A stretch of DNA of 64,000 nucleotides from Octopus vulgaris (taxonomy: Eukaryota). Below, piece after piece: positions 33,016 to 61,994 of this stretch (positions are counted from its first letter, which is position 1; every line of letters starts with the position of its first letter). A program made the translations under genes and the position numbers. The notes beneath the pieces were generated by a model. The model had not been told where the DNA came from. It saw only the letters and a program-made list of their open reading frames with translations, and ran no database searches. Location of the stretch: the NCBI GenBank assembly GCA_951406725.2, contig OX597816.1:52390001-52454000 (forward strand). Reading direction: 5' to 3'.

Positions 33016-33315
33016 ATATCGAAGGTAGTGTAGTACAATTTTTTCATGCTACTTCATTTTATTGTAAGTATTACATCAGTTTTAAAATGTCGAGCAATCT
33101 TCAGCCACATATAGAATTTTTTAATTAAATGGACAATGTACATTTTTATACTTATTTCATTATTTCAATGAAATAAGTATAAAAATGTACATTGTCCATT
33201 TAAAAAATTCTATATGTGGCAGAAGATTGCTCGACATTTTAAAACTGATGTAATACTTACAATGTTTAATAAAATGAAGTAGCATGAAACGATTGTACTA
33301 CACTACCTTAGATAT
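33016..33315. mobile_element. Foldback (about 145-bp arms) carrying two degenerate long-stem-II hammerhead motifs; Penelope-like LTR fragment
   Basis: Near-perfect inverted repeat centred at ~33164. Minus arm: tgtgg-CTGAAGA-tTGCT...AGCAt-GAAA-aaattg-TA-ctaca. Plus arm: tgtgg-CAGAAGA...GAAA-CGATTG-TA-ctaca. Confidence 0.65.
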
Positions 33316-34069
33316 GCTTGTTGCTTATTATGATTATAATCACTCCATTTGATTTATATGGATAATACCATACCAAATTCTGGTGCCTTTAACTTAAGTA
33401 CCATATTCATCTGAATATATATATATATATGTATATATCTTTAAAAAAGGAGATGTAGAACACGAGTTGTGATATATAAAAAAGGAAATGAAGAAAATGC
33501 TGACAAAATAATTTAAGTAAGGGAGAGTGTATTTAATTAGGTGAAAGTTCTTTTTACCGGTTGCGCATTTGTTATGCTTATCAAAAGATATTTTTTAAGA
33601 GAGATAGAGTTCCTTTCTAATAGATTTTTTTCTCTTATCTATATATATATATATATATATATATCAGGTACATATTGCATCAAGTAACCAACTGGTGAAA
33701 GTGTTCTCTTGAGGTTAAAAATAGCAGTAACATCAGTTATTATGCAACAGCCATGTTTAAGTGGCAGTAAATGTTGCTTATTTGATTATCATTTTTAAGG
33801 CTGACATTGGTTGTAAATCTCAAGATAAATTTCAAGAATTGGTATATTTGTTAACTTAATCTTAAAATTTATGTATGGTTCAGGGCTAGACATAATTTGT
33901 GGCAGATACAATTAGCTTATAGCAACATTGTAAAATAGACATTAAAATAATAATGTTGATGATGACAGGGATAATAAAAATCAGTTATAATTAGAACAGG
34001 AGAAGGATTTACACCAATATACACTCATAATGCATAAAATAAACTGTATAAATTGTTTATGAGACTAAC

Positions 34070-34208
34070 CAGCAATATCCTCTTCATCTTTTTGGATCTG
34101 AGACTGGTCTAAAAGAATCTTGGTGCTGTCAACAAATGCTCGGTAGTAACCTTCTAAAAGAGCAATGAAATCTGGGACATCATCATTGAGAAGTCCTACA
34201 CAAAGTGC
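34070..34208 (-). CDS. FRMPD4: FRMPD-like exon, end of FERM C-lobe (ALCVGLLNDDVPDFIALLEGYYRAFVDSTKILLDQSQIQKDEEDIA)
   Basis: Acceptor ttttctttccag, donor gttagt, 139 nt, phase 0-1. GYYRxxVDS is the FERM-C terminal helix motif of FRMPD proteins. Confidence 0.9.
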
Positions 34209-34411
34209 CTGGAAAGAAAATGTAAAAATAATATAAGCAACTGCTCATTACGAATTGAAAACAAATTGTTAAAATGATCTTTTACTTTATTTTTACTGAA
34301 CATCTTTAACAAGGTAAAGTCTAAAACCAATTTCAAAAATTATTTTTGAAATTGCTTTTAGACTTTTGTTACTTTTAGTTACTTTTGTTAACATTTTCTT
34401 CAACTGCTTTA

Positions 34412-34642
34412 AGGCGGCGTGCTGGCAGAAACATTAGCGCACCGGGTGAAATGCTTAGTGGTATTTCGTCTGCCATTACGTTCTGAGTTCATATTCCGCC
34501 AAGGTTGACTTTGTCTTTCATCCTTTCGGGGTCGATAAATAAAGTACCAGTTACACACTGGGGTCGATGTAATTGATTTAATCCCTTTGTCTGTCCTTGT
34601 TTGTTCCCTCTTTGTTTAGCCCCTTGTGGGCAATAAAGAAAT
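34412..34642 (+). mobile_element. tRNA-derived SINE family C; other copies at ~35915-36143 (-), 45408-45618 (+), 18470-18630 (-), 58385-58590 (-), 9070-9245 (-)
   Basis: ggcggcg.gctggcagaaac head, gagttca.attcc B box, conserved gtcgactttgcctttcatcctttcggggtcgataaa core. Confidence 0.85.
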
Positions 34643-36671
34643 AATATTCCTCAACCGCTGTTTTAGTTAGTTGATTTTTCAGACTGCATTAATTTGTCTA
34701 ATTCTTGGCAATTTCTCTATTGAGGATAATCTGTCTAGAATCCATATTATATTGTGAGAAAAAAAAAATTCTTGTTGACTCCCAAACTGTATCAAAAACA
34801 TAACACTCCATAATAATGCTGCATTCTCTTTAATCTCTGGTTCACTTTCAAATTGTGGCTAAAGGGAATTATATTTTGTTTGGAACAATTTGCTAATAGA
34901 CAGACTATATTGCAAGATCTACAGTGCAGAAATAATCAATAAGCTATCATGTTTAGGTACGATTAATTTTACAAATGAGATGGCTAAATAACTTTGGTTA
35001 AAGTACTGGTGATTGGAACTGGTGAAGTAGGTTCGATTTTGTTTTTATAATCAAGGTTTTATTTTCAGCCTGTTTCCATTTACTGGTAATAAAACATTGC
35101 AAAATTAGTATAATAAATTAATGGCTGATGGCTTAGACTTTCAATTAGAAGTTGGCTGAAAATCTTGTAATGAATTTAATTCACACTGTCTCTTAATAGA
35201 TGGAATCAATGAAACAGAAACACTAATCAGTTTTACATCAGCAATTTGGCTGGCATTCTAAAAATAATTGCTAATGTTATTATAACTAACAAGCATGGGC
35301 CAGCAGGGGAGCTTCTCTGTGGTTATTCAGTTTGCTAGAATAAGCTAGTTGAGTAACCAAAACTAAGTATCCCTCAAAGAAAACAGTTTGATGGTAACAG
35401 CTGGAATCACTTTGGTCACAGGACAGCTCACTGGACCAACTACAAGACATAAAGCTGCAAAGCAACTGATTGTGACAATAACGACAATGAAAAAAAACAT
35501 CCTCGTTTCTGTGTGTCGTTCCGAAGTTTTAGCACTGTATAGAAAATGTTATAAAAGAAGAATAATTTACGTAAGACATTGGGATTTTAATCAAGGTCGT
35601 TACTCTTCTGTTCTGTAACTCATTAAATCTATTGCAGATATCGCTAATACATGCTGTTTGTACATAGAATATTCATTAAGTATTTAATCATGTTGTTAAC
35701 TAATGCAAGAAATGCAGATTAGTTTAGTCATTTCAAATAGCTTCATGTTTGTTGTTGATTCAAACAAAAATTTCTGTCTAGATCTCTTCATAAGGCAAAA
35801 GGGTGTGGAGAACTTATCAGCTGCAGAGTGGCTAACCTACCATGAAACATCAGGACACACACTCTCTCTCTCTCTTTATCTTCTTTTTTCTGCATGCAAA
35901 GAGAATAGTATATATTTCTTTACTACCCACAAGGGGCTAAACACAGAGGGTACAAACAAGGACAGACAAAGGGATTAAGTCGATTACATCGACCCCAGTG
36001 CGTAACTGGTACTTAATTTATCGACCCCGAAAGGATGAAAGGCAAAGTCGACCTTGGCGGAATTTGAACCCAGAACGTAACGGCAGACGAAATACCGCTA
36101 AGCATTTCGCCCGGTGTGCTAACGTTTCTGCCAGCTCGCCGCCAAAGAGAATAATATATACAATATATGTGCTTACTTTCCGCAGTAAAATATAGGTTAA
36201 ATAAAAATAAATGCACCCTTTTAAAGCCTAGCCAGGCTCATGGGCCCAGTTTCCTGGTTTCTATGGCGTATGTGTTCCCCAGCTGGATGGAACACCAGTC
36301 CATCACAGTGTTACTCATTTCTGCCAGCTGAGTGGACAGGAGCAATGTGAAATGAAGTGTTTGGTGCTGACACCCTAACCACTAAGCCACGAAACTATAG
36401 GTTAATTACATTTATATCTATCTTAGATTTTCTAATATATAGCATTTGCACATAACATGTATGTGCAGGTGTCAAAGAATGACAGACTACTCAAGTTTCA
36501 CCAGTGGATGATCATGGCAGCTGTATTCAACCAAGGATAAAATCCAAGTAAACTGTCATATTTTTTATAAACATATCTGTCCACTCTATCCACTGTAGTG
36601 AGCTCTATATCAGATAATGTTTGATCTATACATAATATATACATTCTACAGACCTTACATTCTGATAAAAG

Positions 36672-36890
36672 CAAAATCAAACACACATACACGAGGTGTG
36701 TGTGTTGTTAGTTCATGGGTCGACTGCACTTTAGGCATAACAGTATACTTTCTCAATGTACCTGCTTCCCTATAATTTACTTTCAGGTGTTTTTAACACC
36801 AGGCACATTGAGAAAGTAGTCTCTTATGCCTAAAATGCACCTGACCCACAAACTAACAACACACACATCTTGTGTATGTGTTTGATTTTG
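36672..36890. repeat. Imperfect inverted repeat (~90-bp arms)
   Basis: caaaatcaaacacacatacacgaggtgtgtgtgttgttagtt mirrored by aactaacaacacacacatcttgtgtatgtgtttgattttg. Confidence 0.7.
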
Positions 36891-37735
36891 TCTATATACC
36901 TCAGGCTGCTACTAATTCTGAGCTGAGATGCTGAGACCCCCTTCGGTCATGACTTACCATGGGATTGCACCTAGAAAGTTACCCTCCCAGGCACAAGTCC
37001 AGGAAAGGTTGTTTATGGAAGACCAGCAATCTCCCATGCATACCAGCCTCCCCTCTCCATGCCACCGATGTTATACATGAATACATATACATACATACAT
37101 ACACATACATATATATATACATGCATAAAAATATATATACATATATATATACATGCATAAAAATATATATACATATATGCATACATACATAGAAACATAC
37201 ATACATACATATATACATACATATAAATACATACATACAAACATATATATACATATATGTATATGTACCACCCACACACCAGCACTGACCAATTCCCATC
37301 CCCACATTTTCACACCTACACGTACACACACGTACATGCCAAGATCACCAGCTCTCTTTCACACGCACATACATACTCTCTTACACACATGCGCACCTTT
37401 GTTTTAGGATCACTACAACGTTATCTCCCCTACTTCTTTGCTTTCCTGTGTGACCCTTCTGTCCAGCATTCACCATGATAGATCAGTAGCCAGTACACAC
37501 ATTTTTTTTCTCTTTGTTTCTTTCTATGTTCCTTTCTGTGGATGAGCGTAGGCTTGAAACGTTAAAGATTTTTTCAATTCCCGAGTGTTATACTAATACA
37601 TCTGTTTGTTTTCTACACCACCTGTCTTCGTCTTATGCATATATGTATATATATATGCATATATGTATATATATATGCATATATGTATGCATATATGTAT
37701 ATATATATGCATATATATATGTATGCATGTATATA

Positions 37736-38180
37736 TCTCTCTTTATATAAACGGCAGTTTGTCTGTGTGTGTTTCTGTGTGTCTGTTTGGTTGTATCTCT
37801 CTTTATATAAACGGCAGTTTGTCTGTGTGTGTTTCTGTGTGTCTGTTTGGTTGTACCCTCACTCTGACCACGGCTTTCAACCGATTCTGATGAAACTTGA
37901 CACACACATAGCCCAATGTCATAATTCAAAACTAACGCAGCGAAAATTTTGAAAAGTTCCCCCAGTTCTGAAAAAGATCGATAAATTCGACATGGGGTCG
38001 ACAATCAGAAACATAAACCACAGATGGTCATGGGGACGCAACTCGACCTTTTTAACTATCAAAAAAAATTTACCATCATTTTTTTCCCCATTTTTTTGCT
38101 ATTTTTTTGCTATAACTCTCTAAAAATGCTTTATAGTTATTTCCCTTACAAACCCGAGCAACGCCGGGCGATACTGCTAG
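37736..38180 (+). mobile_element. Non-autonomous Helitron with a tandemly duplicated 5' ~60 bp
   Basis: 5' TC, 3' cccgagcaacgccggg hairpin + CTAG|T. Nearly identical to 40389-40769. Confidence 0.75.
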
Positions 38181-38949
38181 TGTATATATAAAACTTACTT
38201 GGAAGAGGATGCGTGGCATTCAATCATATAATAATATCAATAACATATATATAAATATATATGCATACGTATATGTACATACATGTATATGTATATATAT
38301 ATATATATATGCATATATATATGCATATGTGGGCACACATATCCTCTTCCAAGTAAGTTTTATCTCACAATCCTTTTACTCTTTCGTTTTTCTCTCTTTC
38401 TCTCTCTTATTCTTTTACCTCCTCTTCTCCCACTGTTCTACCCTACTACTCTGTCACTCTCTCTCCCTCACTCCTCCCCCTTTGCTCACGTGGCTTCCAC
38501 GTGACCATCGGCCATGTTTCTTTCTTTCTCTCCATTGTAGCTGGGACAAGAAAGACGTGTTCTTTTTCGTCTCCAGTCCTAGCTTGATTTATGCATTCAC
38601 CACCACAACATCGTTTGGGCTTAGCAGCCCTTTTCACTGTCCCGTTTGTATTACCTATTTTGACCCTACACAAAATCCCAAATTTACTTTGCAGGTGCAA
38701 CTGTTTTATCGAAAGCGCATGTTGTTGTTAAATGCTCGAAATATGAGACTAGAGCAACAACCAACAACTGATGAAGTGTCATTCTTTATATTTGTTTTGT
38801 TTTCCATTTGTGTCTTTCATTGTTTGAAAGAATAGTTCGTGTTCCATGTACTCGTGCTTCGTACCTTTTTGCTGTACACTTTCATGACGTCCTGTGCACT
38901 CGTATGCATATATATATATATATACGTTATTTATATTATATATATATGT

Positions 38950-38993
<44 letters not shown>

Positions 38994-40140
38994 TTGTTAT
39001 TTATATTATATATATAAATCATATTATTATTATTATATATATTATTTATATTATTATATATATGCGTGTGTATATATATATGTGTGTGTGTGAGTGTGTG
39101 TGTGTGTGTATGAACTAGATAGACAGATGAGTGCAGTTTCTCGTTTGCTACTACAGTGACAGTTTGAATTTGAAACTTAAACGAAGCCATTATTATGATA
39201 GGGTGGATGATTTCATAGATAGAAACATTTACATTTAATTGATTTCCAGGATATTTCTTAATTTCACTAATAAATCACCAGTCTGTTCAAAAGAATCTTG
39301 TCCTGACCTCTTTCACTTTTGTCCTCAGCATTAGACAGTCAAGTACCTAGTTTCTTTTTGATGCACGACATTAGTGTGTCTATTTTTGAATGTTTCAATC
39401 TATTTGTAGACAGTCTGAAACAGTAAAATGCTATTTCTATAGTGTACTGAAAAACTTCACAGAATTTCATGCTCTGATCTAACTTCAGCTTACACTGCTC
39501 TTCTTCAGAACAAAAGTAAAGTAAGAAAACGTGATGTAGAAATGTTTAATGTAATTACAATGACAACTTTATTGATATTTCAAGTTCAAGCCTGTAATGT
39601 AGGGTCTAGAAGAACATGTCTAGTGGTGTGTGCACAACTAATTTTCCAACCAGTAGGAAAAAAAAATTATAAGTTTATTGTGAATAATTAATGATTCAAG
39701 AGTGTGAGAATGTGTGTACACATATATATAATACATATGTATAGATATTAAAATAGTGAGTTTTAATTATATATTCATGTAAACAAACATAAGCACAATG
39801 TATATACCACAAGGTAAATACACACATTTGTATATTCTTTATACATTCATAATATTCACATATACTTGCATGCACATATGACATGTACATACACATTCTT
39901 TATTAATATTTTATATATTTATGTGGAATTCTAAAATTTAACTCAATCACCAGTGGCAAAAATATAACACACGTGCGTCTTCCTCTACAATGATTGTTAT
40001 GGTGCTTAGTGAAAGACAGAGAGATTTCTACATTTATGAATATATATTTTATTGTATTTTAGAGGTGGAACCCGTTGTATGTCATTCAACCTCAACACAC
40101 AGTAGTGTGTGTGTATATATAATATTCAAAGGTGAATAGG

Positions 40141-40226
40141 CATTGAAAGCTAGCAAGCCAAGCTACTCCAGACTGATGAAGAGCAATGACTCTGAAACTA
40201 GTCTCTGAATGCTGGCTTTGCTGAAT
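40141..40226 (+). ncRNA. Type I hammerhead ribozyme motif
   Basis: caga-CTGATGA-AGAG caatga CTCT-GAAA-CTAG-TC-tctg, with predicted GUC cleavage after 40203. Stem I is extended by a 10-bp helix aaagctagca/tgctggcttt. Confidence 0.8.
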
Positions 40227-40388
40227 GGAGGTGCTTATCTCCTTTGTTTGAAAACAGAAGGACGCAGTACACTTCTGTCACATAGCCAACTGGAAACGGT
40301 GTTTACTGGGGCTAATTAGCAGTATCATTCTTCCCTTTCCTGGGACAGCCATATTAAGTTGACGACAAACCATGACTATATATATATA

Positions 40389-40768
40389 TCTCTCTCTATA
40401 TAAACGGCAGTTTGTCTGTGCGTGTTTCTGTGTGTCTGTTTGCTTGTACCCTCACCCTGACCACGGCTTTCAACCGATTCTGATGAAACTTGACACACAC
40501 ATAGCCCAATGTCATAATTCAAAACTAACGCAGCGAAAATTTTGAAAAGTTCCCCCAGTTCTGAAAAAAATCGATCAATTCGACATGGGGTCGGGAATCA
40601 GAAACACGAACCACAGACTGTCTAGGGGACGCAACTCCACCTTTTTTAAATCTCAAAAAAATTTACCATAATTTTTTTTCCATTTTTTGCTATTTTTTGG
40701 CTATAACTCTCTAAAAATGCTTTATAGTTATTTCCTTACAAACCTGAGCAACGCGGGCGATACTGCTA

Positions 40769-40769
<1 letters not shown>
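40389..40769 (+). mobile_element. Non-autonomous Helitron
   Basis: 5' TC, 3' hairpin + CTAG|T, inserted in (TA)n. Confidence 0.75.
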
Positions 40770-40817
<48 letters not shown>

Positions 40818-40819
<2 letters not shown>

Positions 40820-41057
40820 CTCTTTTACTTGTTTCAGTCATTTGACTCTGGCCATGCTGGAGCACTGCCTTTAGTTGAGCAAATCGAACCCAGGACTTAT
40901 TCTTTGTAAGCCTAGTATTTATTCTAGTATGAACCGCTAAGTTATGGGGACATAAACACACCAGCATCGGTTGTCAAGCAATGTTGGGGGGACAAACACA
41001 GACTCACAAACATATACACACACACACACATATATATATACATATATATATGCATAC

Positions 41058-41090
<33 letters not shown>

Positions 41091-41257
41091 TACATATATA
41101 CGATGGGCTTCTTTCAGTTTCCATCTACCAAATCCAGTCACATGGCTTTGGTCAGCCCAAGGCTATAGTAGAAGATACTTTCCCAAAGTGCCACACAGTG
41201 TGATTCAACCCGGAACCATATGGTTGGTAAGCAAGCTACTTACCACACAGCCACTCC

Positions 41258-42582: not shown

Positions 42583-43148
42583 TGGGGTCGTCTGGAAAGT
42601 TCGTGCCAATTTATAGTAGTTTACCTTTCGACTTATTTTAGAACATGGTTGAGTCCATAAAATAGGATTTGACTACACCTCCATTTAGAGCACAGTTTAA
42701 GCTATCTTTTCATGGAGGAAGGTTTATGTTCCTATAACCTGTGTTAATTCTGTAACCCTTTAAAATGTAAGATAAGAAAGTTCATTTTCGGCTCTTGATG
42801 CTTTGGGAACCAGACAAAAATTGCTGCAGCTTGGCTGGGATGTGTTACCCCACCCTCCATATTCACCAGATATTGCTCCTTCGGATTTCCACTTATTCAG
42901 GTCTCTGCAGAATAGTCTTAATGGTAAAAATTTCAATTCCTTGGATGACATAAAAAGATACCTTGATGAATTTTTTGCCATGAAACCACCTCAATTCTGG
43001 GAAGAGGGTATTTTCAAGTTAAAGGAAAGATGGAGACGCATTGTGCAACAAAATCGTTCATATTTGGTTGATTAAAAATGTAATGGCAAGTATTTATTGA
43101 CCTTTTTCATTCCTTTCAAAATTGGCACGGACTTTCTGGACAACCCAA
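42583..43148 (+). mobile_element. Internally deleted mariner (Tc1/mariner) element
   Basis: ~30-bp TIRs (tggggtcgtctggaaagttcgtgccaattt / aaattggcacggactttctggacaacccaa), TA at the left end, and a transposase C-terminus inside. Confidence 0.9.
42809..43075 (+). pseudogene. Mariner transposase C-terminal fragment
   Basis: WDVLPHPPYSPDIAPSDFHLFRSLQN motif. The N-terminal remnant at 42766 begins ATG TAA and is fused out of context. Confidence 0.9.
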
Positions 43149-43588: not shown

Positions 43589-43693
43589 TTGTGGCATTTC
43601 TCCTTTTATACAGACTGTAACCCATTGGATGTTGTCCCCATCCCGACTTGTCCTCAGCTCTTCAATCTGTTCAAATTCAGCAATCAGTTGCAA
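43589..43693 (-). CDS. FRMPD4: FRMPD-like exon, FERM C-lobe (LQLIAEFEQIEELRTSRDGDNIQWVTVCIKGEMPQ)
   Basis: Acceptor tctttctacttcag-type, donor gtaagt, 105 nt, phase 0-0. In frame with flanking exons; resembles the LLADFSHV region of FRMPD4. Confidence 0.85.
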
Positions 43694-43799
43694 CTGAAGT
43701 AGAAAGATAAACTTATATGAGTATGTGCATGCACATGTGTGTGTGTGTGTGTACATACATACATACATTCATATATATATATATAAATTTGAACTCTAT

Positions 43800-47235: not shown

Positions 47236-47286
<51 letters not shown>

Positions 47287-47363
47287 GAATCAATGAAATA
47301 CCAACTAAGTCTCATTTTCATTGTTTTATTATTTGCAATTTTTACAATTTTATGATAATGAAA

Positions 47364-47404
47364 TGAACTAGTACTTTCATGTGTTATGCAATCATCAGGT
47401 TTAT
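47364..47404 (-). ncRNA. Minimal hammerhead motif, inverted copy with a decayed stem II
   Basis: Minus strand: aaac-CTGATGA-ttgcataacacat-GAAA-GTAC-TA-gtt. Confidence 0.5.
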
Positions 47405-47450
47405 GTAGTGATAACTGAGTTGTCAATCATGGAACATGACTTTCACTACA

Positions 47451-47490
47451 TAAACCTGACGATTGCAAAATGCATGAAAGTACTAGTTTG
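47451..47490 (+). ncRNA. Minimal type I hammerhead motif
   Basis: taaac-CTGACGA-tTGCA aaa TGCAt-GAAA-GTAC-TA-gtttg. Confidence 0.65.
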
Positions 47491-47516
47491 TTTCACTATT
47501 GTAAAAATTGCATATA

Positions 47517-49090
47517 ATCATCATCATCATCATCATCATCATCATTTAACGTCCGCTTTCCATGCTAGCATGGGTTGGACGGTTCAACTGGGGTCTGGGG
47601 AGCCCGAAAGCTGCACCAGTCCAGTCTGATCTGGCAGTGTTTCTACAGCTGGATGCCCTTCCTAACGCCAACCACTCCGAGAGTGTAGTGGGTGATTTTA
47701 TGTGCCACCGACACAGGTGCCAGACGAGGCTGGCAAACGGCCAAGCTCGGATGGTGTTTTTTATGTGCCACCGACACAGGTGCCAGACGAGGCTGGCAGA
47801 CGGCCACGCTCGGATGGTGTTTTTATGTGCCACCGACACAGATGCCAGATGAGGCTGGCAATCGACCACGATCGGATGGTGTTTGTTACATGCCCACAGC
47901 ACGGAGGCCAGTCGATGCGGTACTGGCTACGGCCACGTTCGGATGGTTTTCTTGTGTGCCACGTGCCACCGGCACTGGTACCACAAAGATACAAATTCCA
48001 TTGATGTTCATCTATTTTGATTTGTTTTGATTTTCACTTGCCTCAACAGGTCTTCACAAGTGTCACAAGAAGGAAGGTAAGCACAGGTGGACTGACTACG
48101 TCCCAGGTAGGGGCCACGGGTTATGGCCTGACTAGTCTTGCCGGGTCTTCGGATGGTGTTTTTATTCGTGTTTTTATGTGCCACCGACATAGGTGCCAGA
48201 TGAGGCTGGCGAACGGCCATGATCGGATGGTGTTTGTTACGTGCCCACAGCACGGAGGCCAGTCAGTGCGGTACTGGCTACGGCCACGTTCGGATGGTTT
48301 TCTTGTGTGCCACCGGCACTGGTACCACAAAGATACAAATTCCATTAATGTTCATCTATTTTGATTTGTTTTGATTTGATTTGATTTGATTATGCAGTAC
48401 TGACTACGGCCACGTTCGGATGGGTTTCTTGTGTGCCACCGGCACTGGTACCACAAAGATACAAATTCCATTGATGTTCATCTATTTTGATTTGATTTGA
48501 TTTTCACTTGCCTCAACAGGTCTTCACAAGTGTCACAAGAAGGAAGGTATGCACAGGTGGACTGACTAGTCTTGCCGGTTCTTCGGAAGGTGTTTTTATG
48601 TGCCACCAACACAGGTGCCAGATGAGGCTGGCGAACGGCCACGATTGGATGGTGTTTGTTACGTGCCCACAGCACGGAGGCCGGTCGATGCGGAACTGGC
48701 TATGGCCACGTTCGGATGGTTTTCTTGTGTGCCACCGGCACTGGTACCACAAAGATACAGATTCCATTGATGTTCATCTATTTTGATTTGTTTTGATTTT
48801 CACTTGCCTCAACAGGTCTTCACAAGTGTCACAAGAAGGAAGGTATGCACAGGTGGACTGACTAGTCTTGCCGGTTCTTCGGAAGGTGTTTTTATGTGCC
48901 ACCGACACAGGTGCTAGATGAGGCTGGCGAACGGCCACGATCGAATGGTGTTTGTTATGTGCCCACAGCACGATGGCCAGTGATGCGGTACTGACTACGG
49001 CCACGTTCGGATGGAATCTTGTGTGCCACCGGCACTGGTACCGCAAAGATACAAATTCCATTGATGTTCATCTATTTTGATTTGTTTTGA
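47517..49090 (-). repeat. RTE 3' UTR insertion expanded into a higher-order tandem array
   Basis: (CAT)n tail at the left; ~60-bp gtgccaccg monomers; marker ccattgatgttcatctattttg recurs at ~47998, 48342, 48468, 48763 and 49058. Confidence 0.8.
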
Positions 49091-49252
49091 TAATAAAATA
49101 TGAAAATCAGACTTAGCTGGAATTTCATTAATATATTCTCCTGTACACAATCATGCAAACTAGGATTCACACACACACACACACACCTGTACTCAGTAAT
49201 TCAGTATGGAAAATAACTATCTGATTTGCTGATCACCATATCAAAATGCTTT

Positions 49253-53540: not shown

Positions 53541-53930
53541 ACTCTTTTACTTGTTTCAGTCATTTGACTGTGGCCATGCTGGAGCACCGCCTTTAGTCAA
53601 GCAAATCGACCCCAGGACTTATTCTTTGTAAGCCTAGTACTTATTCTATCGGTTCTCTTTTGCCAAACCACTAAGTGACGGGGACGTAAACACACCAGCA
53701 TCGGTTGTCAAGCGATGTTGGGGGGACAAACAGACACACATACACATATGTATATACATATATACGATGGGCTTCTTTCAGTTTCCGTCTATCAAATCCT
53801 CTCACAAGGCTTTGGTCGGCCTGAGGCTATAGTAGGAGACACTTGCCCAAGGTGCCATGCAGTGGGACCGAACCCAGAACCATGTGGTTGGTAAGCAAGC
53901 TACTTACCACACAGCCATTCCTACGCCTAT
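53541..53930 (-). mobile_element. SINE family A, inserted into a decayed piggyBac-type MITE (~53380-53963)
   Basis: Full-length match; flanks resemble the 22342 MITE. Confidence 0.85.
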
Positions 53931-54812
53931 ATTTGTATAGAAATATTGTATTGAAAGTGTTGACCCTGTAAAGTGCAGAGGTATAATTTCACCCAGGACT
54001 ACTTCATCTTTAATTTAGGCAGAATGTGTTCTTTTTCTAAGTTGGTTAGGTATGATTTGAGTGAGAGAGTTAGATACTATTTCTAACATTTTCCATGGCT
54101 ATGTAGTAGATATTTCATTGCTTCCTAACTCACTGGTTACTTAGGCAGTTTAAAAAAAAATTTGTTTCTTCCTTAATTTTAATATCAATGTATTATAAAA
54201 TAAAAATTGATCACTCGAATTTATCTGATTAAAAACAAGTTTCTAATAATTTTCCCGCTATAAAAAAAATATTTTAAAAAATTGATAGAGGTTAGGAAAA
54301 AAATTTCTTTTTAATTAAACTACATTTTTAGATTTACAAATGGAAAGCTGCCAAACAATTTGTTGTTGTTTTGAGATATGTGAAAGGGTGGAAATACAGC
54401 TTAGAGATGAAACTGGGTATTAATCTCATTAGTTCTTCAAAACTTGTTAAATGTGATAAATGATTTAATTCTGCTTTTGAATCTTTTTGTGGTTCATGTA
54501 ATTAAAAGCTAATCATTTTCCTCAAACATATTCTGATTTATATAATTAAAAATATAATAATATATTTGTAAATTATTTTGCAATATATGTAAATAAATAA
54601 TACTCCCAAACATGCATATTTGTAAAATATTTGCATGTCTGAAAACACAAGCAGTTCTTGATAATACATAGAAAATATATCAGCAACCTTTAACCTCAAT
54701 AACTGCATCTTTATAGGAGTTTTTCTGTTTATATATCCTTACCTTAACAACATCAAATTGTAAAGAGTTAACCAAGTTCTTCAGTTGAAACACATTACTC
54801 TTCTCTCTAGAT

Positions 54813-55010
54813 CAGGTATTCCTAATGTGGGACATAACCAGTGGGGCATGGGATCCTTTTTTTTTTTTTTAGTGGGATGTCGAATTTTGAAAATCTTTCT
54901 TTACAGCAAACATACTACACCTGTAATATTTTTCTAGCCACCGGTGAGGGCATACATTTTTCTGGGATGTTATTGTGGGGACCAAGGGGAAAATAGGTTG
55001 GGAAACACTG
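54813..55010. mobile_element. hAT (Charlie-type) MITE
   Basis: CAG...CTG termini; perfect 8-bp TSD CTCTAGAT. Confidence 0.75.
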
Positions 55011-55229
55011 CTCTAGATTAATATATACATACACACACATATATATCATGCAGACACACATACACATATGTACACAACAGGCTTACCAAGTATATTCTCA
55101 AGGCACTGGTCGACCCAAGACTACATTAGAAGACACTTGCCCTAGATGCAGACCAATGCAATACAACTTGAGATTATGTGGTAACAAACCAACCCCACAT
55201 GCACACATCCTATCCTGCACTTATCTTTT

Positions 55230-55580
55230 GTCTTTTACTTGTTTCAGCCATTTGACTGTGGCTATTCTGGGGCACCTACTTGAAACGTTTTAGTTGAACA
55301 AATCGACCCCCAGGACTTTTTTTAAGCCCAATACTTATTCTATCGGTCTCTTTTGCCAAACCACTAAGTTACAGGGACATACAAGCAATGGTGGGGAATA
55401 AACATACATACATATATGACTGGCTTCTTTCCGTTTCTGTCTATCAAATCCAATTACAAGGCTTTGATTGACCCCTAAGGTTATACTAGGCAGTTGCTGA
55501 AGTTGCTCTAAGTGGGACTAAATCTGGAATCATGTGGTTGGGAAGCAAGCTATTTACCACACAGCTACACCTGCACCTAT
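55230..55580 (-). mobile_element. Diverged SINE family A
   Basis: Tail, body and head recognisable. Confidence 0.7.
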
Positions 55581-57399
55581 ACACACACTCCTATATAAAC
55601 ACACATATGGACCACACACACACAAAACAAAACAACATTAATAGTCTGGTTTTGTTTTATCAAGTAAATTTTTATTTTATTTATGTGCCCTTTTCAAGCC
55701 TAACCAGGCTCAGGGGCCCGGTTTCCCAGTTTCTATGGCATATGTGTTCCCCCCAGCTGGACGGGACACCAGTCCATTGCAGCGTTACTCAAGAAACAGG
55801 AAGAAAGAGTGAGAGAAAGTTGTGGCAAAAGAGTAGAATAGGAGTTACCGTCACTCCCTGCCAGAGCCTCATGGAGCTTTTATAGGTGTTTTTGCTCAAT
55901 AAACACACACAAGGCCGGTCTGGGAATCGAAACTGTGATCCTCCGACCGCGAGTCTGCTGCCCTAACCACTGGGCCATTGCGCATCCACTTATCAAGTAA
56001 AATCTTATTTTAATTATCAAGAGATTTTTCTTAGTTTCGGTAATATATTGGGGTCTGCTTTTCTTTTCTTTTCTTCTTTGTTTTGTTTTATTTTTTCTGC
56101 CACATTATCAGAATGGATTGTATTGTTAATATCATTCTCTTGTTCTCTTTTAGAATTATATGCATTAAACATGTGCCTTTGTTGATTATTGGAAATCATT
56201 GGAGCTAGCTTTAATTATATATTTTTTTGTGTTGTTATTATTTACTCTATATTTTCTTTTATGTCTTTAGATGTTTCTGATGCAAAACAAATAAATAAGA
56301 AACCAATTCCATCTCAATGGAAGGTGTCAATCTTTGTTTTGTTTAACAGATGGTATGGATGGTCTCTAGATTGCTTCTACATGAGAAAATGTTCATTAAT
56401 TTTTCTAATGATTAATGAAAAGTTGTGCACAGTAGGTGGGCTATAAGGATATAACTTCTTTTCTTAAGATTATCCAAACTAAAACATGTATTGAAAATTT
56501 ACAGGCTAACAAAGAACTTTGTACTGAAAAGTTCACTTGAACATAAATTAGATGTCCATTTGGTTTTGTGCCTACTTTCGTATGCTAGCATGAGTTAAAT
56601 GAATATACATATATTATTGAGGCATTGTTTTACAATTTGATGTTTTTCCTATAGCAAACTGTATTTGTTTGCTATAACATCTCTGATTAAGTTATTTTCT
56701 AAACAATTCTATTATACTAACTTAGCCATGCCTTCATTACTACATTGCCAAATATGCTTCACTGAGGAGGTGAGAATAAGAGTGAAATACATCCTGAGTT
56801 GTCTTACAAACTTGGCATGTAGATTGAATGAAAGCAATATGAGTCATTGAATAATATTGTTTTTCTTCACATTACAATAATTTCTTGTTTGTTTATTAAT
56901 CCCCCTTTCATAAACTTTATTAACCCTAACTTAATTCAATGACTTGTTTTACGATTACAGAATTATTTTTTTTCAATTCCTTCTTTTATTTCTGGACTGC
57001 TGATGTCATACTTGCATAGGATTTTGGAAATTTGCTTAGTAACCTCACGGCTCTGGGTTCAATCACAGAATTTTGGTCAAGGGTCTTTTATCATAGTCTT
57101 GTGTTGAGAGGAATATTGGGTCCAGACACCAATATGCATACTCGTGTGTGTGTGTATCCTTTACCAAGATATATCTATATATCAGCCAAGTATATTTTAA
57201 AAAATAAATAGGTAAAATCCATGCCAACATTTGTTCAGCACAAAGTTACAAAATCTCCTTTGTCGTTCTCACCATCATAAAAACAGCAAATAACTGGTTA
57301 GCCTAATGGATACCTATCACTACCAATGTTATTGTTCACATATAAAATCATATGTATAAATATAATAAATATGAATATTTATATATTCATATTTATTTT

Positions 57400-57808
57400 A
57401 TGGAGTGGCTGTGTGGTAAGTAGCTTGCTTACCAACCACATGGTTCCGGGTTCATTCCCACTGTGTGGCACCTTGGGCAAGTGTCTTCTGCTAAAGCCTC
57501 AGGCCGACCAAAGCCTTGTGAGTGGATTTGCTAGATGGAAACTGAAAGAAGCACGTCATATATATGTATTTATATATATATATATATACGTGTGCCTGTG
57601 TGTATATGTCTGTCTGCCTGTGTTTGTCCCCCCCAACATCACTTAACAACCGATGCTGGTGTGTTTATGTCCCCGTAACTTAACGATTCGGCAAAAGAGA
57701 CCGATAGAATAAGTAGTAGGCTTACAAAGAATAAGTCCTGGGGTCGATTCGCTCAACTAAAGGTGGTGCTCCAGCATGGCCACAGTCAAATGACTGAAAT
57801 AGTAAGAG

Positions 57809-57845
<37 letters not shown>

Positions 57846-58053
57846 ATTTATGTGTTTGTGTTTGTCCCCCCCAACATTGCTTGACAACCGATGTTGGTGT
57901 GTTTACATCCCTGTAACTTAGCGGTTTGGCAAAAGAGACCGATAGAATAAGTACTAGGCTTATAAAGAATAAGTCCTGGGGGCGATTTGCTTGACTAAAG
58001 GCGGTGCTCCAGCATGGCTACAGTCAAAATGACTGAAACAAATAAAAGAGTAA
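57400..58053 (+). mobile_element. SINE family A followed by a tandem 3' half
   Basis: The tail runs into (TA)n, then the body repeats. Confidence 0.85.
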
Positions 58054-58110
58054 TTCATAACAAATATCAATTATTCATTAAATAAGTTTGATGAGATTGA
58101 TACAACTTAC

Positions 58111-58194
58111 ATGGTAAGTTTTGACATTAGTAATTCGACTGATACCAGTTCTTGGTCCAACAACAATCATATGCTCAGACTTGTGGCCTCCGTC
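58111..58194 (-). CDS. FRMPD4: FRMPD1/3/4-like exon, start of FERM C-lobe (DGGHKSEHMIVVGPRTGISRITNVKTYH)
   Basis: Acceptor ttttattgtag, donor gtaagt, 84 nt, phase 0-0. VVGPRTGIS resembles the LVGPRYGIS motif recalled from FRMPD4. Upstream exons not found in the window. Confidence 0.85.
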
Positions 58195-58617
58195 CTACAA
58201 TAAAATAGAAAATTTTAAATTGTTAATGTCACTTCCAATAAAAGAAAATGATATTTTGAAGCAAAGTAAAAAAAAAAAATTTACATTTTTGTTAAACAAG
58301 ATCAATAGATTTAGTTGACTATATAGAGATAGAAAAGGACTGTTATGTGACTGGAAAAAGTGAAGAAGTATGAATAAAAATAATAATCCTTCCTACTATA
58401 GGCACAAAGCCTGAAATGTTGGGGAGGAGACAAGTTGATTACATTAACCCCAGTGCTTGACTGGTACTTATATTATTGACCCCGAAAAGAAGAAAAGGCA
58501 AAGTCAACCTTGGTGGAACATGAACTCAGAACACAAACCACTAAACATTCTGCCCCAGCTTGCTAATGATTCTGCCAACTTGCCACTTCACAATAACAAT
58601 GATAATAATATTTATAA

Positions 58618-58940
58618 TGTTGACAAATATGGAGAATTGAGATTGCCACAATATGGCAGCTGCAAGTGTCAAACATAAAGGCTGTTCCTGTCGTCATTGG
58701 AGCATTGGGTTCAATACCACCCAACCTGAAGAAATATCTGGATATCTTAAGAAATGCCCTATAATCTTGATGTATTGCAAAAATTAAGCTTTACTTGGAA
58801 TTGCATGCATACTGTGTAAAGTACTGTCTGTCTAATGCCTTTGTTGTGACTTGACAGACAGGACAAACCCCCGATACACACAATATCTTCAATCTACAAC
58901 ATCCCAATATTGGATACTGTGTGATGTCACCATAATTGGT
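58618..58940 (+). mobile_element. R4/Dong-type non-LTR retrotransposon 3' fragment (restriction-like endonuclease end)
   Basis: Frameshifted translation DKYGELR...IATIWQL...IKAVPVVIGALGSIPPNLKKYLD...LQK...ALLGIACILCKVL; follows a (TAA)n-like tract. Confidence 0.7.
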
Positions 58941-58994
58941 TTTGAAATAATTACATTAAATTTGTTTATGAAGTTTATATATTGTGTAACGGAG

Positions 58995-59748
58995 AGCATC
59001 ATAACAAACAGAGAATATTAAAGAGATATTTGTGCTGCCAAATTATATCTGGATAGTTTAGGTATACAACCAAAGCTTTACGACTAAAGACGGTGCTCCA
59101 GCATGGACACAGTCAAATGACTGAAACAGTAAAAGAGTATATATATGTGTGTGTGTGTTTATGTGTTTGTCCCCCCAACATTGCTTGACAACCGATGTTG
59201 GTGTGTTTACATCCCTGTAACTTAGAGGTTTGGCAGTAAAAGCAGCATCATAACAAACAGAGAATATTAAAGAGATATTTGTGCTGCCAAATTATATCTG
59301 GATAGTTTAGGTATACAACCAAAGCTTTACGACTAAAGACGGTGCTCCAGCATGGACACAGTCAAATGACTGAAGCAGTAAAAGAGTATATATATGTGTG
59401 TGTGTGTGTGTTTATGTGTTTGTGTTTGTCCCCCCAACATTGCTTGACAACCGATGTTGGTGTGTTTAGATCCCCGTAACTTAGCGGTTTGGCAAACGAG
59501 ACAGATAGAATAAGTACTAGGCTTATAAAGAATAAGTCCCGGGGTCAATTTGCTCGACTAAAGACGGTGCTCCAGCATGGCCACAATCAAATGACTGAAA
59601 CAGTAAAAGAGTATATATATGTGTGTGTGTGTTTATGTGTTTGTGTTTGTCCCCCCAACATTGCTTGACAACCGATGTTGGTGTGTTTACATCCCTGTAA
59701 CTTAGAGGTTTGGCAAAAGAGACCGATAGAATAAGCACTAGGCTTGTA
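58995..59748 (+). repeat. Tandem duplication of headless SINE A halves plus ~85 bp of unique flank
   Basis: agcatcataacaaacagagaatatt...caaagctttacgactaaagacgg is duplicated at ~58995 and ~59245; three tail-microsatellite-body units. Confidence 0.85.
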
Positions 59749-60034
59749 GGTCCAAAGGGAACACAACATGATGCCTCCATAGTTAATCATTTTATTAGGC
59801 TGTCTTGTTAATTACCATTTTTATGTTTCTGGATGCAGTTTAGTACATATACACAAAATTACAGATGCATACATATCACCAACTTTCACATGTCTGCCTG
59901 CCTGCCTCTCTGCTTGTCTGTCTGGTCTGAGAATATAGATTGTGTGGTTAACAAAATTGCTTTATAACATGTCTTTTTGGGTTCATTCCTATTGCTTGAC
60001 TCTGTGGGTGACTAACATGTTGTGAGTAGAATTT

Positions 60035-60075
<41 letters not shown>

Positions 60076-60199
60076 AACATAGTTTATATTTTTATAAACT
60101 ACTAATAGTTTCATGTAATGAAAACAACTCAGACAACATTTTATACCACGTGTTGTGCCTTCATACAATTCTCAGGCTATTTACGTATACAGTACACTG

Positions 60200-60205
60200 T
60201 ATATG

Positions 60206-60243
<38 letters not shown>

Positions 60244-60280
60244 AACATAAATGCATATATATATATACAAACATAAATGC

Positions 60281-60311
<31 letters not shown>

Positions 60312-60502
60312 CATAAATGTGTATATATATATACATACATAAATGTGTATATATATATACATACATAAATGTGTATATATATATATATATACATACATAA
60401 ATGCGTATATATATATATATATATATATATACATACATACATAAATGCGTATATATATATATACATACATAAATGCGTATATATATATATATATATATAT
60501 AT
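60200..60502. repeat. Compound (TA)n minisatellite with a catacataaatgygt spacer unit
   Basis: About 8 repeats of acataaatg(c/t)(g/a)t separated by (TA)n. Confidence 0.9.
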
Positions 60503-60684
60503 TACAAAATTAGAGAATGGAGAAACCTACTTAAATCAATAAAACATCAACTATCAGATGATACCCAATCAATACTTTAATACACCATTACATATCAGTA
60601 AAGGCATTATAAAAAATATACAGTAAGAGTAAATAGACAAAGAGATATAAGTATAAAATTTCAAATATAATATGTAATTAAATC

Positions 60685-60800
60685 AATTCTGACAGCTGTT
60701 TCGGCAGTGAGGGCAGTCATACCTCATTTAACCTATAAGCCATAAAGGCAGGTATAAATGAGGCATTAACAAGGATGCCCCACGGCCTCTTCAGAGAATT
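60685..60800 (-). ncRNA. Type I hammerhead ribozyme motif with a ~90-nt stem II
   Basis: Minus strand: aattct-CTGAAGA-GGC...GCC-GAAA-CAGCTG-TC-agaatt. Stem II contains the gtggggca/tgccctcac and atgcctcattta/taaatgaggtat helices. Confidence 0.8.
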
Positions 60801-61334
60801 AAATTTGTTATAATTGTGAAAAAGATTATTTAACCATATACATATAAATATAAAAATAAAAAAATATAAAAATATAAAAATGTAAAATATAAAAACTTAT
60901 ACATAAACTTCATAATGCTACACTTATATAATATAATACTCATTGGTACAATAATGGAAGGTAAACAGAACAAAATAAAACAAAATATATATCAGTGTAT
61001 ATATTAATATTAATAAGCACCGATATTATACATATTTGGCTAATAGTTTAAAAAAAAAAAAAACTAACACATAGGGAGATGAAAAATAATAATTAAAACC
61101 ATGGTTCAGTTCATAAAATTATAAAGCTATAAAAGTTAATAAAAATTACTATTAATATTAATAATAATAATAATAATAATATATACAGTTATGTTTGCAC
61201 CAAATCCATCCTTTCAAGATTGAAATAACTATGAGTTAAGAAATACTGACCACTAGGTAATGATAATTTAGATTAATTCGATATTTATATATATACACAT
61301 ACATACATATATATATACACAATCACACACACCC

Positions 61335-61375
<41 letters not shown>

Positions 61376-61588
61376 AATGCGTATATATATATATATATAC
61401 ATACATATATATATATATATATACGGGTGTGTGTGATTGTGTATAGAAGAATATATTAATAAAAAGAATTCCAACCTTGTCTGATTTTCAATTTTTATTT
61501 ACAATCTTATAATGATATAATATAAGATAATATAATATAATATAATAAAATAAAATAAAATAATAGAATGTTAAATGTTCATTCTGAT

Positions 61589-61633
61589 TGAACTAGTACT
61601 TTCATGCATTAAATTCTGCAATCTTCAGGTTCA
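61589..61633 (-). ncRNA. Minimal type I hammerhead motif (intact core)
   Basis: tgaac-CTGAAGA-tTGCA gaatttaa TGCAt-GAAA-GTAC-TA-gttca. Confidence 0.7.
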
Positions 61634-61710
61634 TGTAATAGTGGTGACAGTCATGCTTCACAATTTTTGACAGTCAAAAATTGTGAAGCATGACTGTCAC
61701 CACTACTACA

Positions 61711-61755
61711 TGAACTTGAAGATTGCAGAATTTAATGCATGAAAGTACTAGTTCA
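61711..61755 (+). ncRNA. Minimal hammerhead motif, inverted copy with a C3>U core change
   Basis: tgaac-TTGAAGA-tTGCA gaatttaa TGCAt-GAAA-GTAC-TA-gttca. Confidence 0.55.
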
Positions 61756-61994
61756 ATCAGAATGAACATTTAACATTCTATTATTTTATTTTATTTTATT
61801 ATATTATATTATCTTATATCATTATAAGATTGTAAATAAAACGTGAAAATCAGACAAGGTTGGAATTCCTTTTATTAATATATATATATATATATACATG
61901 TATATATATATATATATTCGTAAGATATATATATAGGGTAGCGAATATTCTTAGCATGTATAAAAAGTAGAATATCTTGTCTACATGTGTATAT

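What the first reader, a model, noticed from the sequence alone, without database searches (positions are those of the whole stretch)
33016..61880. Recurrent ribozyme-bearing foldbacks inside the introns of one gene
Seen: three independent long inverted repeats (33016-33315, 47285-47517 plus 49091-49135, 61450-61880) each carry a hammerhead motif in both arms, and two solitary intact hammerheads also occur (40141, 60685). All have a palindromic stem III (AGTACT, ACTAGT, ACAGCTGT; near-palindromic ACGATTGT). Known: such minimal type I hammerheads occur in Penelope-like element LTRs and retrozymes and are thought to act as dimers. PLE insertions often have inverted LTR copies, and coleoid cephalopods have extensive ADAR editing. 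Inference: in the pre-mRNA each foldback pairs a ribozyme with its own antisense, so co-transcriptional folding or A-to-I editing could gate intron self-cleavage. The foldback may also be a short non-autonomous mobile unit.
Basis: partly seen in the sequence, partly recalled or inferred. Interest (0 to 1): 0.72.

Follow-up and report, generated by a model that had tools for sequence, protein, structure and literature searches.

The report
Penelope dual-primed foldbacks in octopus introns
The mirror-image repeats in the introns of this octopus-type FRMPD4-like gene are back-to-back ends of common Penelope-like jumping genes whose built-in hammerhead ribozyme motifs are predicted to be locked up by their own mirror arm, so they are likely ordinary insertion debris rather than RNA switches, though the rule that only one arm carries a 'tail' hints at how these elements likely insert.

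Summary
The three foldbacks and two solo motifs are real, but only 4 of 8 hammerheads pass a strict descriptor. In the FRMPD4-like pre-mRNA (minus strand) only one intact motif (60794-60691) is both sense and unmasked. They are 3' ends (pLTRs) of five Penelope-like families. Three families sit directly behind RT-GIY-YIG ORFs elsewhere in the genome (two Hydra-type, one Neptune-type); one is an older relative of the Neptune-type family; one is a ~355-nt non-autonomous unit. Head-to-head pairs, a one-sided tail and (TA)n targets are published PLE features. Foldbacks are common (43 in 1 Mb sampled), intact motifs occur at about 11 loci per Mb, and the gene region is not enriched. Core bases mutate at about the neutral rate (19 observed, 21.7 expected). 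Simulated editing frees the arm only after the core adenosines are lost. Regulatory gating is not supported. What the data add: 48 of 58 pairs have the tail on exactly one arm, and the tailed arm is often the shorter one, which favours priming of both DNA ends over simple snap-back. This scan reported the same architecture before on other octopus DNA (13 notes).

The parts
58108..58194 (-). Host FRMPD4/Preso-like exon (FERM region), approximate limits
   Evidence: tblastn of P0001, 93% identity; WW, PDZ and FERM domains by Pfam
43604..43696 (-). Host exon, approximate limits
   Evidence: tblastn 87%
34068..34217 (-). Host exon (end of FERM C-lobe), approximate limits
   Evidence: tblastn 82%
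17503..17709 (-). Host exon, approximate limits
   Evidence: tblastn 90%
33016..33161 (-). FB1 left arm: Hydra-type PLE 3' end without tail; sense to host; hammerhead 33104-33034 with broken stem III
33167..33422 (+). FB1 right arm plus tail (about 33339-33422); antisense to host; hammerhead 33220-33297, core U4A, 59-nt stem II region
   Evidence: family lies behind a CxCX5C GIY-YIG ORF in 5 of 20 walked loci
40125..40382 (+). S40 solo: part of a ~355-nt circularly permuted non-autonomous unit; intact hammerhead 40173-40203 (ACTAGT, GUC site); antisense to host
47282..47418 (-). FB2 left arm, no tail; sense to host; hammerhead 47398-47369 with weakened stem II
47418..47518 (+). FB2 right arm, first part; intact hammerhead 47456-47485 (AGTACT); antisense to host
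47519..49089 (.). Later insertion (ATC run, repeat with 63-, 126- and 296-bp tandem units) that splits the FB2 right arm
49090..49164 (+). FB2 right arm, 3' part with ~30-nt tail
60499..61282 (-). S60 solo: very young Hydra-type PLE 3' end, no tail; intact hammerhead 60794-60691 (ACAGCTGT, GUC site, 85-nt stem II region); sense to host and unmasked
61421..61674 (-). FB3 left arm: Neptune-type pLTR from the preferred 5' start to the end of a 30-nt tail (61421-61450); intact hammerhead 61628-61594; sense to host, masked
61670..61883 (+). FB3 right arm, no tail; hammerhead 61716-61750 with C3U; 5-nt overlap with the left arm at the apex

Best explanation
Each foldback is a head-to-head pair of 3' ends (pseudo-LTRs) of a Penelope-like retroelement in a (TA)n tract, likely made in one insertion event in which both cut DNA ends prime reverse transcription, and its hammerheads are predicted to be sequestered in the duplex and likely decay as neutral debris. 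Shown: family membership, the link to RT-GIY-YIG ORFs, two fixed 3' ends per family, head-to-head polarity, one-sided tails, variable inversion points, near-neutral core mutation. Inferred: the element's protein nicks both strands; one end starts at the distal RT start site (tailed arm) and the other at the proximal site (untailed arm); the template is mostly the short, uncleaved pLTR transcript that begins at a TATA/Inr-like site; the two 5'-truncated cDNAs are joined, often at a short microhomology. In the host pre-mRNA the antisense arm is always made first, so the sense hammerhead would be paired as it emerges; the likely consequence is a dsRNA target for ADAR, not a switch. About 0.85 for PLE insertion debris; about 0.55 for dual priming specifically.
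For: Families are abundant: 520-2549 first-look candidates each. The S60 end follows an RT-GIY-YIG ORF (L131, L132) and the FB3 end follows one (L139, L140, L142). The FB1 end lies about 0.9 kb behind a GIY-YIG ORF in 5 of 20 walked loci in the same orientation, plus 1 inverted. Each family has a short and a long 3' end: tails of about 30, 30, 97, 55-60 and 170 nt, nearly always followed by (TA)n. Of 124 distinct loci, 51 have a head-to-head partner within 1.5 kb and 0 a tail-to-tail one; 41 of 51 have one tail, plus 7 of 7 more distant pairs = 48 of 58, binomial p 5e-7 against 0.5. In 29 resolved one-tail pairs the untailed arm reaches further 5' in 12, the tailed arm in 11, equal in 6; in 5 the partner is tail only; 18 of 32 apexes overlap by 1-10 nt, 9 by 3 nt or more. 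15 of 30 FB3 copies start within 10 nt of one site, 31 nt after TATTTAA. Core singleton changes 19 vs 21.7 expected (p 0.33); arm-to-arm differences 17/341 core vs 314/4912 other (p 0.36). A fixed-position 1-Mb sample holds 19 strict motifs in 11 of 100 pieces and 43 foldbacks, 9 with a loose core; the 264-kb gene region has 4 strict loci vs 2.9 expected (p 0.33). Published: both-strand nicking and extension, two RT start sites bounding the tail, HHR not needed for insertion in vitro (PMC11167929); head-to-head inverted pLTR, optional tail on one arm, TATA/Inr in the pLTR (PMC3846280; PMC8557442).
Against: 10 of 51 near pairs are not one-tail (6 none, 4 both); one of these is the window's FB2, whose tail lies beyond the later insertion. 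Some older partners are cut short, so their class is uncertain. Counting all mismatches, the core looks more conserved than flanks (2.4% vs 3.9%, p 6e-4), and with variants seen up to twice the deficit is borderline (27 vs 36.9, p 0.056), so weak constraint is not excluded. The loci are the top-scoring hits of each search, not a random draw. The 64-kb window alone is richer than average (4 strict loci vs 0.70, p 0.006; about 260 such windows expected genome-wide). No ORF was linked to S40 (35 loci) or directly to FB2 (30 loci). Pfam found nothing for the two S60 ORF pieces and only sub-threshold RVT_1 and GIY-YIG hits for FB3. Arms share few derived changes in older families, so one versus two RNA templates is unresolved. 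The published antisense self-priming model with later end trimming is not excluded.
Confidence: 0.85

Rival explanations
1. One reading: folding or A-to-I editing gates ribozyme cleavage of the intron and so regulates the FRMPD4-like gene.
For: Four strict motifs fall within 21 kb of one gene. One masked sense copy (61628) is intact. Octopus has exceptional hyper-editing, and lizard Penelope is heavily edited (PMC5625713), so editing of these duplexes is plausible.
Against: Five unrelated or distantly related families of different ages; 2 of 4 sense motifs are damaged and 2 of 4 intact motifs are antisense. The antisense arm is transcribed first. MFE -293, -199 and -99 vs -25, -20 and -14 kcal/mol with the antisense arm blocked. 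With up to 50% of As made non-pairing the arm was freed in 1 of 180 runs; at 75% in 19 of 60, with core As intact in 0 of 60. AGUACU stem III motifs are thought to need a dimer, and PLE hammerheads are weak in vitro (PMC4209133). Near-neutral core decay.
Confidence: 0.03
2. The foldbacks form by self-priming (snap-back) on one template, as proposed for rotifer Penelope on an antisense RNA, not by priming of both DNA ends.
For: Published proposal based on palindromes at inverted junctions (PMC3846280). Short overlaps at 18 of 32 apexes and 6 equal-length pairs fit it too.
Against: Simple cDNA snap-back makes the second arm a subset of the first, but in 12 of 29 pairs neither arm contains the other, and 5 partners are tail only. 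In vitro the Anolis protein extends both strands from two sites on sense RNA. Self-priming on antisense RNA with asymmetric trimming remains possible.
Confidence: 0.25
3. The unmasked sense S60 hammerhead (60794-60691) does cut the FRMPD4-like pre-mRNA at a low rate, as a recent and mildly harmful or tolerated insertion.
For: Intact core, 8-bp stem I, stems I and II form in the MFE (-49.1 kcal/mol, z -6.6; closing pairs P 0.85 and 1.0). Stem III can form two pairs with a tetraloop, like invertebrate motifs reported to cleave efficiently (PMC7229834). The copy is 100% identical to another locus over 336 nt.
Against: Predicted monomer stem III pairing probability is below 0.01. The Anolis PLE hammerhead cut only with the element's protein. 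No RNA evidence here.
Confidence: 0.2
4. The foldback is itself a short non-autonomous (MITE-like) mobile unit.
For: Some FB3-family foldbacks share the same apex (L001, L003, L016).
Against: Apex position and arm lengths vary from tail-only to over 4 kb. The shared apex is also the 5' start of many solo copies. Most copies (73 of 124) have no partner within 1.5 kb.
Confidence: 0.05
5. The palindromes are assembly artefacts.
For: Inverted PLE structures are hard to assemble.
Against: Arms differ by substitutions and indels, and FB2 is split by a later insertion. For FB1, contigs of 3 of 4 laid runs go from the left flank 36 nt into the left arm, and 2 runs show their own small indels at the apex.
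Confidence: 0.02

Closest known systems
Inverted-pLTR insertions of endonuclease-positive Penelope-like elements (PMC3846280, passages; PMC8557442, passages and section 11)
   Same: Head-to-head inverted 5'-truncated copy, tail on one arm only, hammerhead in the pLTR, TATA/Inr-like start, microsatellite targets.
   Different: Tails here reach about 97 and 170 nt against the 30-40 described; the one-tail pattern is counted here (48 of 58) and tail-only partners occur.
Hydra clade PLEs, including Hydra-1_Obim of Octopus bimaculoides (PMC8557442 section 11; supplement rows)
   Same: S60 and FB1 ORFs have a C-terminal GIY-YIG, the CxCX5C linker, CxxC and CxH near the end, hammerheads and (TA)n targets.
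   Different: The listed Hydra-1_Obim hammerhead has another sequence and a short stem II; here the stem II regions are 59 and 85 nt. No tree was built, and the proteins were not compared with Hydra-1_Obim.
Neptune (or Nematis) clade PLEs
   Same: The FB3-family ORF has RT, a CX2-5CxxC linker, a GIY-YIG with a CCHH-like set of residues, and (TA)n targeting.
   Different: Neptune versus Nematis not resolved; the ORF copies seen are broken.
Non-LTR retrozymes / non-autonomous PLE derivatives (PMC7229834, passages; bioRxiv 10.64898/2026.07.22.740005, parts 1-2 of 5)
   Same: S40 is a ~355-nt circularly permuted, non-coding unit with a type I hammerhead, found as monomers and partial tandems.
   Different: No copy with two complete tandem hammerheads among those examined; circular RNA not tested; it also forms head-to-head one-tail pairs.
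LINE-1 twin priming (recalled, no call)
   Same: Both target strands prime reverse transcription and give a 5' inversion joined at microhomology.
   Different: In L1 the two cDNAs copy different parts of the RNA; here both start near the 3' end and usually copy the same part, giving a palindrome.
Conserved intronic hammerheads of amniotes (seen only as a reference title; details recalled)
   Same: Type I hammerhead inside a host intron.
   Different: Those are single-copy and conserved; these are multi-copy transposon parts with near-neutral decay.

Membership tests
EN+ Penelope-like element 3' end | RT followed by C-terminal GIY-YIG ORF upstream of the hammerhead-bearing end | tested here: met
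   S60, FB3 and FB1 (GIY-YIG and thumb part). Pfam hits are sub-threshold for FB3 and absent for S60. FB2 only through 77-82% similarity to FB3.
EN+ Penelope-like element 3' end | Two alternative 3' ends with an optional tail | tested here: met
   All five families
EN+ Penelope-like element 3' end | Adjacent head-to-head inverted 5'-truncated copy | tested here: met
   51 of 124 loci; 0 tail-to-tail
EN+ Penelope-like element 3' end | Full-length element with 5' pLTR in partial tandem | tested here: inconclusive
   All ORF-bearing copies fetched were 5'-truncated or broken
Hydra clade (S60, FB1) | CxCX5C linker, no CCHH, CxxC and CxH around the conserved E and N | tested here: met
   Read by eye from translations against the description
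Hydra clade (S60, FB1) | N-terminal RWK and DKT motifs; placement in an RT tree | not tested
Neptune/Nematis clade (FB3, FB2) | CX2-5CxxC linker and CCHH in the endonuclease | tested here: met
   CCHH-like residues in L139; linker motif clear in L141, altered in L139
Neptune/Nematis clade (FB3, FB2) | Placement in an RT tree | not tested
   No tree built
Type I minimal hammerhead | CUGANGA and GAAA core, stems I-III, UH site | tested here: met
   Met for 4 of 8 motifs (40173, 47456, 60794, 61628), not for the other 4; controls 0
Type I minimal hammerhead | Match to an Rfam hammerhead model | tested here: not met
   No hammerhead family at E<=1
Type I minimal hammerhead | Self-cleavage | not testable with these tools
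   Needs an in vitro assay
Non-LTR retrozyme (S40) | Short non-coding monomer with hammerhead, tandem organisation | tested here: inconclusive
   ~355-nt permuted unit and partial tandems seen; no two complete tandem hammerheads, no ORF link
Non-LTR retrozyme (S40) | Expressed as circular RNA | not testable with these tools
   No raw RNA reads available
Domesticated regulatory intronic ribozyme | Core under purifying selection after insertion | tested here: not met
   19 vs 21.7 expected; arm-to-arm 5.0% vs 6.4%; family-level test with limited power, not locus-specific
Domesticated regulatory intronic ribozyme | Sense, foldable and intact in the pre-mRNA | tested here: not met
   Not met for any foldback; only the S60 solo qualifies
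MITE-like foldback transposon | Fixed palindromic unit copied as a whole | tested here: not met
   Variable apex and arm lengths

The most novel reading that the evidence does not exclude
Octopus Penelope-like elements integrate by dual priming: each cut DNA end starts at one of the two RT start sites, so every two-armed insertion carries exactly one tail and is born as a palindrome that silences its own ribozyme. This process has laid down on the order of 100,000 hairpins and is a main source of the exceptional near-perfect dsRNA, and hence ADAR hyper-editing, of octopus.
Probability: 0.3. Interest if true: 0.55.

Novelty: new member of a known kind. Interest (0 to 1): 0.24.

Why it matters
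As found, it is an ordinary PLE footprint and removes a tempting ribozyme-switch story. The counted one-tail rule and the tail-only partners give in vivo constraints on an open question, how PLE integration is completed, and tie the two in vitro RT start sites to the inverted structure. If PLE inversions supply much of the genome's near-perfect dsRNA, they would help explain why octopus is among the most hyper-edited animals. In the 1-Mb sample, inverted pairs of 95% identity or more within 2 kb cover 11.9 kb; about 4.5 kb of it (summed by hand) lies in four loci with strict hammerheads, 2.7 kb in one locus, against 0.7 kb for the window's SINE-like repeats.

Tried and rejected
Rfam scan: no hammerhead hit, only microsatellite-driven miRNA noise. 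Run search: no RNA holder listed, which says nothing on expression. Contigs of four runs laid on the FB1 region: no contig joined an empty site, and the fourth run did not cover the junctions, so absence or polymorphism is not shown; summed depth is not a copy number. Presence of S60 and FB3 in other individuals was left untested. A>G excess in element copies as a trace of template editing: none (86/10466 vs T>C 75/10993, p 0.27). Intact cores more frequent in foldback arms than in solos: no (45/63 vs 73/90, p 0.18). The first generic foldback count (15 per Mb) missed most known window foldbacks and was replaced. The first core test mixes in subfamily variants and gaps; one search corrects for this and both are reported. 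NCBIfam and PDB searches gave only weak or irrelevant hits. ORF walks failed for S40. Rows dropped before counts: 6 mirror duplicates of the same pair, plus L046, a segmental duplicate; L057 unresolved. Literature: 'hammerhead ribozyme + intron + self-cleavage + cephalopod' gave 0 papers; 'Penelope + twin priming + inverted' gave 2 unrelated listings. These searches cover open-licence PMC and bioRxiv only, so subscription papers may already state the dual-priming idea. I saw only matching rows of the PMC8557442 supplement, and the bioRxiv supplements were not seen; they or Repbase may already list these families.


Full report
Setting. The window lies in a 2.8-Gb genome of 227 contigs. A 48-aa exon matched one protein, from Argonauta hians, at 83% identity. 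It has WW, PDZ and FERM domains, the FRMPD4/Preso architecture (name from my knowledge). An octopod host is inferred from this. tblastn places the gene on the minus strand, with 13 coding stretches over about 200 kb at E<=0.01, four of them in the window. All five hammerhead sites are intronic.

Observation. A permissive descriptor found 6 of the 8 motifs, plus 1 alternative pairing of one of them and 1 weak unrelated hit at 30118; the strict one keeps 4: 40173(+), 47456(+), 60794(-), 61628(-). The others are damaged: U4A at 33220, a non-palindromic stem III at 33104, C3U at 61716, weak stem II at 47398. In the pre-mRNA the sense motifs are 61628 (intact, masked), 60794 (intact, free), 47398 and 33104 (damaged, masked). 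The strict descriptor gave 0 hits in reversed DNA and in 5 shuffles of 600 kb, and in reversed and complemented 1 Mb. Rfam had no hammerhead match.

What they are. Each site belongs to a repeat family with hundreds to thousands of candidates: FB3 1296, FB1 2549, FB2 520, S40 2151, S60 1858. Best other copies are 95-97%, 93-95%, 84-89%, 84-92% and 97-100% identical. [quoted passage not shown] Walking upstream from FB1 reached a GIY-YIG ORF similar to that of S60 in 5 of 20 loci in the same orientation. S60 and FB1 carry the CxCX5C linker and the terminal CxxC and CxH described for the Hydra clade; this lead came from earlier notes of the scan. FB3 carries CX2-5CxxC and CCHH-like residues, as in Neptune or Nematis. 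FB2 is an older relative of FB3 (77-82% over the hammerhead region, similar tail). S40 is a ~355-nt circularly permuted unit with no ORF link in 35 loci, like non-autonomous retrozymes. Hydra-1_Obim, with a hammerhead and (TA)n preference, is already listed for Octopus bimaculoides.

Anatomy of the foldbacks. Every family has two sharp 3' ends, with or without a tail of about 30, 30, 97, 55-60 or 170 nt, mostly followed by (TA)n. Of 124 distinct loci, 51 have an inverted partner upstream within 1.5 kb, all head-to-head; none is tail-to-tail. In 41 of 51 exactly one arm has the tail; with 7 of 7 more distant pairs this is 48 of 58 (p 5e-7 against the 0.5 maximum under independence). Six pairs have no tail and 4 have two; one of the six is the window's FB2, whose tail lies beyond a later insertion. 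All three window foldbacks therefore follow the rule. Arm lengths run from tail-only to over 4 kb. In 29 resolved one-tail pairs the untailed arm reaches further 5' in 12, the tailed arm in 11, and 6 are equal; 5 partners consist of tail only; 18 of 32 apexes overlap by 1-10 nt. Half of the FB3 copies (15 of 30) start at one site 31 nt after TATTTAA, at a CAGT Inr-like motif, and the window's FB3 apex is at that site. I infer this is the pLTR transcription start and that the template was not cut at its hammerhead.

Mechanism. Published work shows that an Anolis PLE protein nicks and extends both strands at AT-rich DNA, starts at two RNA sites that bound the tail, and does not need hammerhead cleavage to insert (PMC11167929, parts 1-2 of 4 read). 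Head-to-head inverted pLTRs with the tail on one arm and a TATA/Inr in the pLTR are described, with self-priming on an antisense template proposed as the cause (PMC3846280, passages; also PMC8557442, passages). My counts fit dual priming better than simple cDNA snap-back, because in 12 pairs neither arm contains the other. They do not exclude antisense self-priming followed by asymmetric trimming, and they do not tell one RNA from two. This step is inferred.

Is it a switch? Probably not. Head-to-head polarity means the antisense arm is made first whichever strand is transcribed. The duplexes are far more stable than the folds left when the antisense arm is blocked (-293 vs -25, -199 vs -20, -99 vs -14 kcal/mol). 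Making As non-pairing at random, an extreme model of editing, freed the ribozyme arm in 1 of 180 runs at up to 50% and in 19 of 60 at 75%, where core As survived in 0 of 60. After insertion the core mutates about like its flanks: 19 singleton changes vs 21.7 expected, and 17/341 vs 314/4912 between arms. Against this, the raw mismatch rate is lower in the core (2.4% vs 3.9%) and the test with variants seen up to twice is borderline (p 0.056), which I ascribe to selection in the source elements. These are family-level tests on top-scoring copies, not tests of these loci.

Is the gene special? In 100 pieces of 10 kb at fixed round coordinates there were 19 strict motifs in 11 pieces, about 31,000 loci genome-wide (95% interval 15,000-55,000 if independent), 4 of the 11 with a head-to-head hammerhead-bearing partner, and 43 foldbacks, 9 with a loose core. 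The window has 4 strict loci (0.70 expected, p 0.006), but about 260 such windows are expected by chance and it was picked for this. The other 200 kb of the gene region have 0 strict motifs and 9 foldbacks, so the region as a whole is ordinary (4 vs 2.9, p 0.33). Three further foldbacks in the window have no strict hammerhead. FB1 is real and shared: contigs of 3 of 4 laid runs, under three organism codes, cross its left junction.

What remains open. The S60 solo is intact, sense, unmasked, folds into stems I and II and is identical to another locus over 336 nt. It is the one candidate for real cleavage of the pre-mRNA, though monomer stem III is predicted weak and PLE hammerheads are poor in vitro (PMC4209133, passages). 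Editing of the duplexes is likely as a by-product: octopus ranks highest for hyper-editing and near-perfect dsRNA, and lizard Penelope is heavily edited (PMC5625713, passages). In my sample hammerhead-bearing inversions make up about 4.5 of 11.9 kb of near-perfect inverted sequence, 2.7 kb of it in one locus (summed by hand). This is a lead, not a result; no RNA reads were available.

Verdict. Real; new families of a known kind in a published arrangement, already noted 13 times by this scan on other DNA (unchecked notes, not counted as support). The regulatory reading is not supported. The counted one-tail rule is a modest mechanistic addition. Interest 0.24.

Noticed in passing
window 12243-12602: Foldback whose arms resemble the 3' part of the S40 family (66-74%) and have no strict hammerhead; probably a related, shorter PLE inversion.
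   Followed up: partly
window 23176-23458: Near-perfect foldback (91-93%) with a degraded hammerhead-like motif just right of the apex; similar by eye to a high-depth repeat at about 33472-33606.
   Followed up: no
window 28570-29010 (-): Hairpin 28838-28987 followed by CTGAAGA, flanked by a ~35-nt direct repeat 425 nt apart; may be another partial-tandem PLE end.
   Followed up: no
window 61314-61338: A 25-nt, 100% identical inverted copy of the FB3 tail sits between the 5' end of S60 and FB3; perhaps a templated insertion made when S60 landed.
   Followed up: partly
window 47519-49089: Repeat insertion locally amplified as 63-, 126- and 296-bp tandem units, splitting FB2.
   Followed up: no
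window 42776-43072 (+): 99-aa stretch that looks like a mariner-type transposase C-terminus (recalled motif, not searched).
   Followed up: no
window 34413-34643 and 35913-36143: 231-nt inverted repeat pair (92%), 1.27 kb apart, about 200 nt upstream of the 34217 exon in the pre-mRNA; many SINE-like copies in both orientations add further dsRNA potential.
   Followed up: no
L168:2098-4763: Young array of ~359-nt hammerhead monomers (ACCGGT stem III): two on one strand joined head-to-head to five on the other, 96-100% identical; a retrozyme-like multimer with the same inversion.
   Followed up: partly
L170, L215, L236, L238, L248, L256 and window S60, FB1: Many octopus hammerheads have long stem II regions (45-85 nt), beyond the 7-17-nt core spacer of the relaxed published search; earlier scan notes say the same.
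   Followed up: partly
L131:3828-5522, L132:4618-6846, L280, L287: Asparagine-rich inserts between RT and endonuclease in both Hydra-type ORFs, like those described in rotifer Penelope.
   Followed up: no
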